This document shows, piece by piece, positions 18,001 to 21,000 of a DNA stretch of 64,000 nucleotides. The first letter of the stretch is position 1. Every line of letters begins with the position of its first letter. The position numbers were made by a program. The DNA lies in assembly GCF_016026235.1 (NCBI RefSeq), contig NZ_CP065613.1. One strand, 5' to 3'. The DNA is from Escherichia coli. Its GTDB lineage: Bacteria > Pseudomonadota > Gammaproteobacteria > Enterobacterales > Enterobacteriaceae.

Positions 18001-21000
18001 GCGGCGTTATCCACACGCGCTACGCCAGCATTTGCTGCAGGAGCTCAACCGACTCGTTACGTATGAACCGGTGATTGGCATCATGGGAAAAACCGGCGTC
18101 GGCAAATCCTCGCTGTGCAATGCACTGTTCCGGAGCGAAGTCTGTACTGTCAATGCCGTGGAAGCCTGCACCCGTCAGCCACAGCGTGTCCGGCTGCGCT
18201 TCGGCAGCCATTATCTGACGCTGGTCGACTTGCCCGGAGTGGGCGAGTCTGTTACCCGCGACGGTGAATACCGTGAGCTGTATCGTGACCTCATGCCACA
18301 GCTCGATATGGTGCTGTGGGTGCTCAAGGCCGATGACCGCGCATTTGCGGTGGAAGAGCAATTTTATCAGGACGTGTTCGCGCAGTTCAGAGGACCGATA
18401 CCGCCAGTGCTGTGGATACTCAACCAAGTGGACAAAACCGAACCTGCCGAGCAGTGGCGATGGTTGTCGGCTCAACCCTCGGCGTTACAGGCGGAGCGTA
18501 TTGCGCAGAAACGGCAGGCTGTGGCACGTCAGTTGCAGATAGCAGAAATAGATATTCTGCCAGTCTCTGTCCGGGGGCGTTACCGGCTGCCGCGCCTGGT
18601 GGAGACCATGATTACCCGCCTCCCAAAGCAAGCCCGCAGTCCACTTGTGCCTCATCTGCAGAACCGGTATCGCACTGATACCGTTATCAATACCGCCAGC
18701 AGCAGCTTTGGCGATGCCGTGGTAGAGGTGATTGATAACATCATTGACCTCGCACCGCTGCCGCAGGTGGCCCGCACAGCACTGCATGCGGTGACCCACA
18801 CCGTCGCCCGCGCGGCAGGCTCCCTGTGGGGATTTTTCTTCGGCTAGTCACTTCGCTTTCGATGAGCGGCCTTGCCGTTTTCGATAAGTTTCTTTGTTTC
18901 ATTACGATCGATTTTGTCGATCGAGCCGATCGATATTCATCGTTGTACATGATTAATCCGGTAGCCACATAATCCACAGGGCATTATGTGATTTGTTAAT
19001 TTTAACCATCAAAATCAATGCGATGTATCGCAGGGATTGTCACGCATTAAGGAAAGTATATGCCGTTAATTCTGTTATGGGGCGGTCTGGCCCTGTTGCT
19101 GGGTATCGTGGCTTCCGCTAATGGACGCTCGTTCTGGGGCTGGTTCATTCTCGGTCTGATTATCGACCCGATACTGGCGGGGCTGCTGTACTGGCTTATT
19201 GCAAAGGACCGCACATGAAAACATTTCTGCGTCTGTTCGGTAAGTTCACCCGCTGGTACATCACCCTCATTATCTTTATGGCCTGCCTACTGCTCATTAT
19301 CACCACCCTGGGCAATATGGCTGGCTTCTGACAGGACACTCCAATGAAAAATAAACTGGTTATTTCATTTTTACTGGCTTCAGTGCTGACGCCTTCTGTC
19401 TCGCATGCGTTTGGCAACCCTGATAGCTGGGTAAGTGGCTATGCGCAGGGAACGTCTGAATACACCATCCTCGGTAAAGGGCAATCACAACTTTATCTGG
19501 CCTGCGATAGTTCCGGCTCACAGCCAGCGACCATTATCTTCACTGACGTGAACGGCCAACAGGTCAGGATGGACAGCGGCCAGACACTTGCCATGAGAAT
19601 TGATAACGCTGAAGAAGTGAATATCAGCGAAAGCGAGTCTCATGTGGGATCTGACAATGTGATGTGGGCATGGAACAAATTACGCACCGGCAAACGTGTT
19701 GTGGTTTCAGGTAGCGGGGTAAAACCTGCCACTTTCACTTTAGCGGGGGCTGCTGCAGTTCTTCCTGCCTTCGGTGACAACGGCTGTGTGCCCGGATTTG
19801 CACTGTAGCTCTGCCTCACTCTTACAGATTAAAGGAAATTTAATGAAGAAAATTATTACAGTCGCAGCACTCAGTCTGCTGTCATTTTCTTCGCTGGCCG
19901 GGTCTTCACCTGTTAGCGTCAGCGTCAGCCCGGGAAGCTACAGTCACTATTCATCGATTCGGGTTACATCAAAAGTCGATTCGATTGTGATTAAACAACT
20001 CATTGTCAACAGGGGAAACTGCCAGGATGCAGAATTCGCCAGCCCCTGGAAACCGGTACGTCTGGGATTTGGCGGTGCTGTATCCCATGAATTTACCGGC
20101 AAGGGGCTGATGGTTCCCTGTAATGTACTGGAAGTAGTTGTCCAGACAAGCGAAGGCGCATGGCAGTTTGATTTTGACAGCTGACACCGCGCGCTTTTCC
20201 ACCTTTCTTTTCTATCTGAACGCCCTGCTCAAACGAGCAGGGCGTTTTCTTTTGCCTCTCTTAAAGGAATTACTTATGAGATTAGCCAGCCGCTTTGGCC
20301 GTATAAACCAGATACGCCGTGACCGTCCTCTGACCCATGAAGAGCTGATGAGTCATGTTCCCAGTGTATTCGGGAGTGACAAACATGAATCGCGTTCAGA
20401 CCGTTACACCTACATTCCGACCATCACCATCCTCGAAAGCCTGCAGCGCGAGGGTTTTCAGCCGTTCTTTGCCTGCCAGACAAAGGTTCGGGACCAGAGC
20501 AAACGGGAGCACACCAAACACATGCTTCGCCTGCGTCGCGCCGGGCAGCTAAACGGTCATCAGGTACCGGAAATCATTTTACTCAACAGCCATGACGGCT
20601 CATCAAGCTACCAGATGCTGCCGGGGTTGTTTCGTGGCGTCTGTACTAACGGTCTGGTCTGCGGTCAGTCATTCGGAGAGGTGCGGGTACCACATAAAGG
20701 TAATGTCGTTGAGAAGGTAATTGAAGGGGCTTACGAAGTTCTCGGGGTATTTGACTGGGTGGATGAAAAGCGTGATGCCATGGCGTCACTTTTACTTCCG
20801 CCACCAGCACAGCACGCTCTGGCGAATGCCGCGCTGAAATATCGCTTTGGTGAGGACCACCAGCCGGTCACGGTATCGCAGTTGCTGACCTCACGTCGCC
20901 GGGAGGATTGCAGCGATGACCTGTGGACCGTCTACCAGCGCGTGCAGGAGAACCTGATGAAAGGGGGATTGTCAGGACGAACCGCACAGGGGAAAAGCAG

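What the first reader, a model, noticed from the sequence alone, without database searches (positions are those of the whole stretch)
19060..19331. Pair of overlapping mini-ORFs encoding hydrophobic peptides (52 and 38 aa)
Two ATG-initiated ORFs are coupled by an ATGA overlap and both encode TM-helix-like peptides, below the 60-aa ORF cutoff. Such small membrane proteins are often missed and in prophage islands can be toxins, holin-like or regulatory peptides.
Basis: seen in the sequence. Interest (0 to 1): 0.3.

Follow-up and report, generated by a model that had tools for sequence, protein, structure and literature searches.

The report
Two tiny conserved membrane-protein genes
The two overlapping mini-ORFs are real, conserved genes for very small inner-membrane proteins that open a four-gene envelope operon in a mobile island, and a conserved cluster of Dam-methylation sites just upstream suggests the operon may be switched on and off epigenetically.

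Summary
ORF1 is 19060-19218 (52 aa, two hydrophobic helices). ORF2 is 19215-19331 (38 aa, basic N-terminus plus one helix). They share an ATGA overlap.

Both are genuine coding genes. Orthologues in five other genera of Enterobacterales keep both frames and tight coupling, with dN/dS of about 0.04-0.2 and changes concentrated at third codon positions. RefSeq annotates ORF1 as hypothetical and omits ORF2. GenBank records call both "hypothetical" or "membrane protein".

ORF1 is a stand-alone copy of a widespread, uncurated N-terminal membrane hairpin (GRS-x3-WF…D/SP). ORF2 is an orphan.

The pair opens an operon with two exported proteins, a YfjT-family protein and an Ig-like beta-sandwich, which ends at a strong terminator. 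The operon sits in the variable slot downstream of the YeeP/YfjP-type GTPase gene of a CP4-57-like island. K-12 CP4-44 carries flu (Ag43) in that slot.

Toxin and holin readings find no support.

Noticed upstream: an invariant triple-GATC block that resembles an OxyR site. One 9-nt GATC unit in it varies in copy number between otherwise identical E. coli alleles. This suggests, but does not prove, Dam-dependent phase variation. The biochemical function of the peptides remains inferred.

The parts
17960..18847 (+). YfjP/YeeP-type GTPase gene (MMR_HSR1). This is the conserved island gene that precedes the cargo slot.
   Evidence: Pfam PF01926, E 1e-14. Annotated as a GTPase family protein, 295 aa, in the 99.9%-identical E. 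coli MS15047 region.
18906..18943 (.). Conserved triple-GATC block (GATC at 18906, 18919, 18928). It lies within two 15-nt OxyR-like half sites, ATCGATTTTGTCGAT (18907-18921) and ATCGATATTCATCGT (18929-18943), 7 nt apart. Candidate Dam-sensitive regulatory site.
   Evidence: The GATC spacing of 13/9 is invariant in 14 of 14 loci from at least 9 genera, whatever cargo gene follows. The pattern is unique in the window, with 0.01 expected. The half-site pattern is also unique, with 0.00 expected. blastn gives 42/62 identity to the K-12 agn43 GATC region in reverse orientation. The OxyR half-site consensus and the 13-nt GATC pairs are taken from PMC2909390.
18918..18926 (.). 9-nt unit CGATCGAGC, which carries the middle GATC. 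Its copy number varies between E. coli alleles.
   Evidence: The window has n=1, strain 162.2 has n=2 and CE0026a has n=3, while the other ~500 nt are 100% identical. Six genomes carry +9 nt and one carries +18 nt.
18944..18973 (+). Promoter-like site (TGTACA-18 nt-CATAAT) directly abutting the GATC block.
   Evidence: Consensus scan. The -10-like AyAnAATC is conserved across genera in the intergenic alignment. No transcription start has been mapped.
19019..19032 (.). Palindrome TGCGAT-gt-ATCGCA in the presumed 5' leader. It could be an operator or an RNA hairpin.
   Evidence: The arms are conserved or nearly so and the centre varies in E. coli, Providencia, Mixta, Serratia and Enterobacter-type loci. 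It is absent in Pectobacterium and Citrobacter.
19060..19218 (+). ORF1: 52-aa, two-helix small membrane protein.
   Evidence: There are 38 homologue clusters, dN/dS is 0.04-0.25, and a profile finds 389 representative proteins. It matches phrog_9201 at E 1e-8 and is annotated WP_001128372.1.
19215..19331 (+). ORF2: 38-aa, single-helix small membrane protein, translationally coupled to ORF1 through the ATGA overlap.
   Evidence: It is conserved at 38 aa in five genera, with dN/dS of 0.04-0.29 where dS was estimable. The exact sequence occurs on 763 contigs. RefSeq does not annotate it.
19344..19808 (+). 154-aa exported protein of the YfjT family (PF27224). Third cistron.
19843..20184 (+). 113-aa exported protein with a conserved Cys pair (VNRGxC…CN.lE…TDQG) and an Ig-like beta-sandwich fold. 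Fourth cistron.
20218..20257 (+). Intrinsic-terminator-like hairpin (13 pairs, 8 GC) plus a T-run. Likely end of the operon.
   Evidence: Terminator scan. The same hairpin produced the weak Rfam ctRNA_p42d hit.

Best explanation
ORF1 and ORF2 are genuine, translationally coupled genes for two very small inner-membrane proteins. ORF1 is a two-helix hairpin, probably with both ends in the cytoplasm. ORF2 is a single-pass peptide with a basic cytoplasmic N-terminus and a short conserved periplasmic tail (…LGNMAGF).

They are the first two cistrons of a four-gene operon: ORF1, ORF2, a YfjT-family exported protein and an Ig-like exported protein. The operon runs from a promoter near 18944-18973 to the terminator at 20218-20257. 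It occupies the variable cargo slot just downstream of the YeeP/YfjP-type GTPase gene of a CP4-57-like integrative island.

Most likely mechanism (inferred): the two peptides assemble in the inner membrane as a small complex. That complex partners with, anchors or modulates the co-expressed periplasmic proteins, making an accessory envelope module.

Expression is probably set by a methylation-sensitive site, three invariant GATCs inside OxyR-like half sites that abut the -35. The layout resembles opvAB and gtr, so expression may be bistable or phase-variable.

Shown: the ORFs are coding and conserved, they are coupled, they sit in this operon layout, ORF1 belongs to the hairpin family, and the cis block is conserved and varies in repeat number.

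Inferred: membrane topology, ORF1-ORF2 interaction, partnership with the exported proteins, OxyR/Dam control, and any phenotype.
For: Coding status:
- Both frames, the lengths (51-52 aa and 38 aa) and a junction of at most 2 nt (ATGA, TGATG or TAAtATG) are kept across E. coli, Klebsiella/Enterobacter-type, Serratia, Mixta, Providencia and Pectobacterium loci.
- Window versus Mixta: ORF1 dS 0.97, dN 0.042; ORF2 dS 0.81, dN 0.064.
- Window versus Providencia: ORF2 shows 21 synonymous against 6 non-synonymous differences.
- Variation is dominated by third codon positions.
- Each ORF has its own SD.

ORF1 family:
- 389 representative proteins score E<=1e-3. The hairpin forms residues 1-50 of 50-420-aa proteins that carry Zn-ribbon, TPR, Sel1 or ankyrin parts.
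- It also matches phrog_9201.

Operon:
- Intergenic gaps are 12 and 34 nt, each downstream gene has a signal-peptide-like N-terminus, and a strong terminator follows the fourth gene.
- The same order is found in other genera.
- ORF1 is adjacent to a relative of the 113-aa protein even in Aeromonas, where the order differs.

Positional analogues of ORF2 (basic N-terminus plus one TM, 31-38 aa) follow ORF1 in Citrobacter, Pseudocitrobacter and Providencia alcalifaciens.

Regulation: together with published OxyR/Dam architectures (PMC2909390; PMC3350482).
Against: - There is no expression, localisation or interaction data.
- ORF2 is missing in Aeromonas.
- ORF1 plus a small peptide occurs without the exported proteins in Providencia alcalifaciens and P. 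burhodogranariea.
- The YfjT and 113-aa-type proteins occur in many islands without ORF1/ORF2, so the partnership is not obligate.
- Natural ORF1-ORF2 fusions, by frameshift or deletion, exist in Leclercia and Citrobacter. Loss of the separate peptides is therefore tolerated at least transiently.
- The half sites match the OxyR consensus in only 7/10 and 5/10 positions. The best match to agn43 is in reverse orientation. No transcription start is mapped.
- The TCGAT-rich motifs could instead bind another protein.
Confidence: 0.55

Rival explanations
1. The peptides are membrane-damaging toxins, either holin-like or type I toxin-like. Expression would permeabilise the inner membrane.
For: Both are small and very hydrophobic. 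They lie in a mobile island that also carries a CbtA/CbeA toxin-antitoxin pair. ORF1 matches phage protein families of unknown function.
Against: There is no endolysin, spanin or lysis cassette nearby. Rfam found no antisense RNA family, and the consensus scan found no antisense promoter within the ORFs. Both ORFs have ordinary SDs and are co-transcribed with exported proteins. ORF1 is the common N-terminal anchor of hundreds of larger, non-toxin proteins. PADLOC gave no hit. The exact sequences sit on about 1000 and 763 contigs with no dedicated antitoxin next to them.
Confidence: 0.08
2. The pair is a superinfection-exclusion or surface-remodelling module. The membrane peptides, with the periplasmic proteins, would block phage DNA entry or alter envelope structures, in the manner of opvAB or phage Imm/Sie proteins.
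For: It is horizontally acquired. The slot holds surface or envelope cargo in other islands, such as Ag43 in K-12 and secreted or membrane proteins elsewhere. The upstream site is opvAB-like. ORF1 relatives occur in phage families. Defence-type genes, a NACHT protein among them, lie in the same island.
Against: There is no sequence or fold link to any known exclusion protein. PADLOC gave no hit. The folds of the exported proteins are uninformative. There is no Wzz-like domain.
Confidence: 0.15
3. The ORFs are translated leader ORFs. What matters would be the act of translating them, which couples to or tunes translation of the downstream YfjT-like gene, not the peptide sequences.
For: The junction to ORF2 is tight, and only 12 nt separate ORF2 from the next gene. 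They are the first cistrons of the operon.
Against: The amino-acid sequences are under strong purifying selection, with dN/dS of 0.04-0.2 at saturated dS. The ORF1 fold is a recurrent protein module. The downstream gene has its own SD.
Confidence: 0.05
4. The ORFs are chance open frames in an intergenic or leader region and are not expressed.
For: They are short, and RefSeq does not annotate ORF2.
Against: The frames are conserved across genera, variation is biased to third positions, dN/dS is low, and the other frames carry stops.
Confidence: 0.02

Closest known systems
opvAB (STM2209-STM2208) of Salmonella enterica (PMC3350482, PMC4856963)
   Same: It is a horizontally acquired operon that starts with a very small one-TM inner-membrane peptide (34 aa), placed 1 nt from a second inner-membrane protein. 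A cluster of GATC sites within OxyR sites lies upstream of the promoter.
   Different: No sequence similarity was seen by eye. The partner here is a 52-aa hairpin, and it is encoded first, not a 221-aa Wzz-like protein. There are three GATCs (13/9 spacing) rather than four symmetric ones. Two exported proteins follow. OxyR/Dam control and any O-antigen phenotype are untested here.
agn43/flu OxyR-Dam switch in K-12 CP4-44 (yeeP-isrC-flu)
   Same: It occupies the same island position, the slot just downstream of a YeeP-type GTPase gene. It has three GATCs, with a 13-nt GATC pair inside an OxyR-like half site. Identity is 42/62, and 27/37 over the two half sites by my own manual alignment.
   Different: The best alignment is in reverse orientation. 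The third GATC sits in the other arm. Here the site lies upstream of, and abuts, the predicted -35, whereas in agn43 it lies downstream of the transcription start. The cargo is small membrane and periplasmic proteins rather than an autotransporter.
ypjK-yfjS-yfjT of K-12 CP4-57
   Same: It is the same type of island. A small hydrophobic protein gene (ypjK, 78 aa) overlaps the start of genes for exported proteins, including YfjT, the family of the third cistron here.
   Different: YpjK shows no similarity to ORF1 (BLASTP finds none; hhalign probability 0.2%). In K-12 the genes follow yfjR, not the GTPase gene. K-12 YfjT is only 20% identical to the window's protein.
Uncurated N-terminal membrane-hairpin module (GRS-x3-W-F…S/D-P…AG) of Zn-ribbon, TPR, Sel1 or ankyrin membrane proteins; phrog_9201
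   Same: ORF1 aligns over its full length to residues 1-50 of these proteins and to 50-53-aa stand-alone versions.
   Different: ORF1 consists of the hairpin alone. The module has no Pfam or NCBIfam model and no assigned function.
Holins and type I toxins
   Same: They are small hydrophobic peptides encoded on mobile elements.
   Different: There is no lysis cassette and no matching Rfam RNA family. The setting is a polycistronic operon with exported proteins.

Membership tests
ORF1-type membrane hairpin family (unnamed; phrog_9201) | About 50 residues with two hydrophobic helices joined by a short loop carrying G-R-S. W-F begins helix 2 and (D/S)-P lies within it. | tested here: met
   The motif columns R23, S24, F25, W26, W28, F29, P37 and A40 are invariant, and D36 is nearly so. 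The profile recovers 389 representatives, aligned over positions 1-50. phrog_9201 matches at E 1e-8 over 48 of 55 positions.
Holin | Encoded in a lysis cassette next to an endolysin and spanin. | tested here: not met
   The neighbours are a GTPase, a YfjT-family protein, a beta-sandwich protein, DUF932, an antirestriction protein and RadC.
Holin | At least one TM helix plus a highly charged hydrophilic C-terminal tail. | tested here: inconclusive
   The TM helices are present. The ORF1 tail is only KDRT, and ORF2 ends in the uncharged LGNMAGF.
Type I toxin-antitoxin | A cis- or trans-encoded antisense sRNA that controls a stand-alone toxin mRNA. | tested here: not met
   No Rfam family matched at E<=1 apart from a terminator hairpin. 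The only antisense promoter-like site lies upstream of the ORFs. The genes are polycistronic. An undescribed sRNA cannot be excluded.
Dam/OxyR phase-variation loci (agn43, gtr, opvAB) | A cluster of GATC sites embedded in OxyR half sites (ATAGxTxxxAxCTAT) at the promoter. | tested here: met
   There are three GATCs. Two half sites lie 7 nt apart, matching the consensus at 7/10 and 5/10 positions. One GATC pair is 13 nt apart, as in gtr and agn43. The block abuts the -35.
Dam/OxyR phase-variation loci (agn43, gtr, opvAB) | OxyR binding blocked by methylation, heritable undermethylation, and ON/OFF subpopulations. | not testable with these tools
   This needs methylome data, EMSA and single-cell reporters.
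opvAB | A Wzz-like O-antigen chain-length regulator as the partner of the small peptide. | tested here: not met
   No operon product gave a Wzz or any other Pfam hit. The models of the exported proteins are a generic beta-sandwich and an unmatched fold.
YpjK (K-12 CP4-57) | Sequence similarity to YpjK. | tested here: not met
   BLASTP gives no alignment, and hhalign probability is 0.2%.
Known anti-phage defence systems (PADLOC) | A match to any PADLOC protein model. | tested here: not met
   ORF1, ORF2 and both exported proteins gave no hit at E<=0.1.

The most novel reading that the evidence does not exclude
The slot downstream of YeeP/YfjP-type GTPase genes in CP4-like islands may be a general, portable phase-variation cassette. 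An agn43-related Dam/OxyR switch would drive bistable expression of whatever envelope cargo is inserted, further tuned by slippage of a 9-nt GATC-bearing repeat. ORF1/ORF2 would be the membrane core of one such cargo, an opvAB-like module that remodels the envelope or excludes phage in a subpopulation.
Probability: 0.25. Interest if true: 0.7.

Novelty: new member of a known kind. Interest (0 to 1): 0.4.

Why it matters
Small membrane proteins are systematically under-annotated. Here a 38-aa gene under clear purifying selection, present on hundreds of sequenced contigs, is absent from RefSeq annotation of every E. coli genome examined.

ORF1 gives a compact, stand-alone handle on a widespread membrane hairpin module that has no curated family and no known function.

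If the upstream GATC block does work like the Ag43, gtr and opvAB switches, epigenetic phase variation would be a built-in property of a whole class of enterobacterial islands and their variable envelope cargo, not a peculiarity of Ag43. The naturally occurring 1-, 2- and 3-copy repeat alleles would be a ready-made test series.

Tried and rejected
- Pfam, NCBIfam and PADLOC scans of ORF1 and ORF2 gave nothing meaningful. The only hit was a weak MgrB match for ORF2 at E 0.06, which reflects TM composition.
- Sequence searches of solved structures were uninformative for ORF1, YfjT-like and the 113-aa protein.
- tblastn of ORF1 against phage genomes found no match. Against plasmids it found only a few chromosome-like records.
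- I considered that ORF2 arose by duplication of ORF1 helix 2, based on the WFILGLII versus WYITLII resemblance and a natural deletion that joins them. BLASTP finds no similarity, so the idea is not supportable.
- I considered that the Citrobacter 38-aa and Providencia alcalifaciens 31-aa peptides are ORF2 homologues. For the Citrobacter peptide, the only one compared, BLASTP finds no similarity. I keep both as positional analogues only.
- Homology of ORF1 to K-12 YpjK is rejected.
- Rfam finds no isrC or other family in 18000-20500. The single weak hit is the terminator hairpin.
- The metagenome scan for expanded 9-nt repeats used too degenerate a pattern. All hits were unrelated GC-rich contigs and none had the flanking motif.
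- Literature searches found no functional data on ypjK or yfjT and no description of this GATC block.
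Full report
**Observation.**
ORF1 runs 19060-19218 (+, ATG, 52 aa) and ORF2 runs 19215-19331 (+, ATG, 38 aa). 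The ORF2 start overlaps the ORF1 stop as ATGA. Each ORF has an AGGA 6 nt upstream of its ATG. ORF1 has two hydrophobic stretches separated by SANGRS. ORF2 has a basic N-terminus (MKTFLRLFGKFTR), one very hydrophobic stretch and a short tail. The ORF2 frame is closed by a stop at 19119-19121 and has no alternative start before 19215.

**Are they genes?**
Yes, both. ORF1 has 38 homologue clusters at 90% identity in Klebsiella, Providencia, Aeromonas, Kluyvera, Citrobacter and others, with an invariant core (A2).

I fetched homologous loci by exact protein look-up and by a genome scan. A 38-aa ORF2 follows ORF1 in Enterobacter/Klebsiella-type, Serratia and Mixta loci with the ATGA overlap. In Providencia rettgeri-type loci the junction is TGATG, and in Pectobacterium it is TAA-t-ATG.

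Nei-Gojobori estimates give strong purifying selection on both ORFs:
- Window versus Mixta: ORF1 dS 0.97, dN 0.042; ORF2 dS 0.81, dN 0.064.
- Window versus Providencia: ORF2 has 21 synonymous against 6 non-synonymous differences, at saturated dS.
- Variable sites by codon position are 21/11/41 for ORF1 and 14/10/29 for ORF2. Every other frame except one antisense frame carries a stop in the window, and that frame is closed in Providencia and Pectobacterium.

**Annotation status.**
The exact ORF1 sequence is on at least 1000 contigs and the exact ORF2 sequence on 763. Sources name them "hypothetical protein" or "membrane protein". In the three RefSeq E. coli genomes I inspected, ORF1 is WP_001128372.1 and ORF2 is not annotated. 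Only 9 of 5426 complete E. coli genomes carry the region.

**What ORF1 is.**
No Pfam or NCBIfam model matches. A profile of ORF1 orthologues, searched against 1.84 billion representative proteins, finds 389 proteins at E<=1e-3. In most listed hits the match covers profile positions 1-50 at the extreme N-terminus of proteins of 50-420 aa.

The larger members carry zinc ribbons, TPR, Sel1 or ankyrin repeats after the hairpin, and no Pfam domain covers the hairpin itself. Other members are 50-53-aa stand-alone proteins in mobile-element contexts with AlpA, integrase, RadC or YfjJ-type genes. ORF1 also matches phrog_9201 (E 1e-8) and phrog_8436, both of unknown function.

ORF1 is thus a stand-alone copy of a widespread, uncurated membrane-hairpin module. 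The zinc ribbons that follow the hairpin in relatives suggest a cytoplasmic C-terminus. That gives N-in, C-in for ORF1. The positive-inside rule gives N-in, C-out for ORF2. Both topologies are inference.

**What ORF2 is.**
It is an orphan, with eight called clusters, all enterobacterial. In Citrobacter and Pseudocitrobacter a different 38-aa peptide takes its place, and in Providencia alcalifaciens and P. burhodogranariea a 31-aa peptide does. Both have a basic N-terminus and one TM helix. The Citrobacter peptide, the only one I compared, shows no BLASTP similarity to ORF2, so I treat both as positional analogues. Aeromonas has ORF1 without any ORF2.

Natural ORF1-ORF2 fusions occur. One arises by frameshift (Leclercia L026, where the YfjT gene is also broken; Citrobacter P0036). 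Another appears to be an internal deletion that joins WGW-F/Y-I (P0037).

**Context.**
The host element is a CP4-57-like integrative island. Its gene order is YfjI-family, GTPase (17960-18847), ORF1, ORF2, a 154-aa exported protein (19344-19808), a 113-aa exported protein (19843-20184), DUF932, antirestriction, RadC, DUF987, CbeA/CbtA, then ypjA and the gab operon.

The 154-aa protein belongs to the YfjT family, PF27224. A strong intrinsic terminator (13-bp stem, T-run) lies at 20218-20257. With gaps of 12 and 34 nt between cistrons, this defines a four-gene operon.

K-12 CP4-57 has an analogous ypjK (78-aa hydrophobic)-yfjS-yfjT arrangement, but YpjK is not detectably related to ORF1.

The 113-aa protein family (VNRGxC…C..lE…TDQG, with a conserved Cys pair) is adjacent to ORF1 even in Aeromonas, where it lies upstream. 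That argues for a functional link.

However, YfjT and 133-135-aa relatives of the 113-aa protein occur in the same slot in many islands without ORF1/ORF2. ORF1 plus a small peptide also occurs without them. The link is therefore not obligate.

**Regulatory region (outside the finding's coordinates).**
The 212 nt between the GTPase stop and ORF1 contain three GATC sites at 18906, 18919 and 18928. In 14 loci from at least 9 genera the triple, with spacing 13 and 9, is invariant. It lies 120-156 nt upstream of the first cargo gene, while most of the surrounding intergenic sequence has diverged. This holds whether the first cargo gene is ORF1 or a 133-aa secreted protein. The pattern is unique in the 64-kb window, with 0.01 expected.

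The block reads ATCGATTTTGTCGAT-CGAGCCG-ATCGATATTCATCGT, two 15-nt units 7 nt apart. They resemble the OxyR half-site consensus ATAGxTxxxAxCTAT quoted in PMC2909390. A GATC pair 13 nt apart, as here, is also what gtr shows and agn43 shows.

Against the K-12 yeeP-flu intergenic region, blastn gives 42/62 identity across the agn43 GATC cluster in reverse orientation. By hand the two half sites plus spacer are 27/37 identical.

The block abuts a promoter-like TGTACA-18-CATAAT (18944-18973) whose -10 is conserved across genera. That layout is closer to opvAB and gtr, where the sites are upstream of the promoter, than to agn43, where the site is downstream of +1. ORF1 genes that are not preceded by the GTPase gene lack the block. 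It therefore belongs to the slot, not to ORF1.

**A variable repeat.**
Three E. coli alleles are 100% identical over about 500 nt, from the GTPase stop to the YfjT-like start, except for the copy number of the 9-nt unit CGATCGAGC. The window has 1 copy, strain 162.2 has 2 and CE0026a has 3. By length, six genomes carry +9 nt and one carries +18 nt. This changes the GATC number (3, 4, 5) and the spacing of the two half sites. It looks like slipped-strand variation in a regulatory site.

A second conserved element, the palindrome TGCGAT-nn-ATCGCA (19019-19032), lies in the presumed leader.

**Mechanism.**
I commit to the following, with step-wise confidence:
- The two ORFs are translated, coupled small inner-membrane proteins (about 0.9).
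- They act together as a small membrane complex linked to the co-encoded periplasmic proteins, as part of an accessory envelope module (about 0.4).
- The operon is controlled by a Dam-methylation-sensitive site (about 0.55), with OxyR as the binding protein (about 0.35).

The closest functional analogue in the literature is Salmonella opvAB. There a 34-aa one-TM peptide and a larger inner-membrane protein are encoded 1 nt apart, are horizontally acquired, and phase-vary through GATC/OxyR sites upstream of the promoter (PMC3350482). Membership in that family is not claimed. There is no sequence similarity and no Wzz-like partner.

**Rivals.**
- Toxin or holin-like: no lysis genes, no matching Rfam RNA family, no PADLOC hit, and ORF1 is a common anchor module.
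- Sequence-independent leader ORFs: contradicted by the low dN/dS.
- Chance ORFs: contradicted by all the comparative data.
- A phage-exclusion or surface-remodelling role remains an open sub-hypothesis.

**Verdict.**
This is a real pair of conserved small membrane-protein genes. One is systematically missed by RefSeq, and both are uncharacterised. As small membrane proteins of an accessory island they are fairly ordinary in kind. The more interesting lead is the conserved, repeat-variable, agn43/opvAB-like GATC block that appears to govern the whole cargo slot. I found no description of it in the searchable literature.

Noticed in passing
window 18906-18943: Three GATC sites (13- and 9-nt spacing) sit inside two OxyR-like half sites 7 nt apart. 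The triple is invariant in 14 loci from at least 9 genera downstream of YeeP/YfjP-type GTPase genes, whatever cargo gene follows. It resembles the K-12 agn43 OxyR/Dam switch in reverse orientation.
   Followed up: partly
window 18918-18926; L043 and L042: The 9-nt unit CGATCGAGC is present in 1, 2 or 3 copies in E. coli alleles that are otherwise 100% identical over ~500 nt. This changes the GATC count (3, 4, 5) and the half-site spacing. It is probably slipped-strand variation.
   Followed up: partly
window 19019-19032: The palindrome TGCGAT-gt-ATCGCA lies ~28 nt upstream of the ORF1 start. Its arms are largely conserved and its centre varies in several genera. It is absent in Pectobacterium and Citrobacter. 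It could be an operator or a leader hairpin.
   Followed up: no
window 20218-20257: A strong intrinsic-terminator hairpin lies right after the 113-aa gene. It is also the source of a weak, spurious Rfam ctRNA_p42d hit.
   Followed up: yes
L026 6001-6273 (Leclercia); proteins P0036, P0037: Natural fusions of ORF1 and ORF2. A frameshift after codon 27 gives 86-90-aa products. A 52-aa chimera joins ORF1 …SFWGW to ORF2 YITLII…, apparently by an internal deletion. In Leclercia the YfjT-like gene is also disrupted.
   Followed up: partly
window 19843-20184; L022 5606-5989: The 113-aa exported protein family (VNRGxC…C..lE…TDQG, Ig-like beta-sandwich model, conserved Cys pair) has 133-135-aa relatives as the first cargo gene in other islands. 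It also lies next to ORF1 in Aeromonas. The mechanical ORF list starts it at GTG 19774, but the annotated start is ATG 19843.
   Followed up: partly
[not shown]
   Followed up: partly
window 5448-13662 (- strand): Two very large ORFs (1475 and 1260 aa) lie here. The first is annotated as a NACHT domain protein in the near-identical E. coli region. They are probably a defence-type gene pair in the same island.
   Followed up: no
window 23461-28176 (- strand) versus L001 19613-23522: The ypjA/ehaD-like autotransporter ORF (1571 aa) appears intact in the window. In E. coli MS15047 it is truncated, with an IS5 next to it.
   Followed up: no
L028 4658-4885: Another island variant (E. coli CFSAN061762) carries a different 75-aa hydrophobic small protein, plus other secreted proteins, in the same slot behind the same GATC block.
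   Followed up: no
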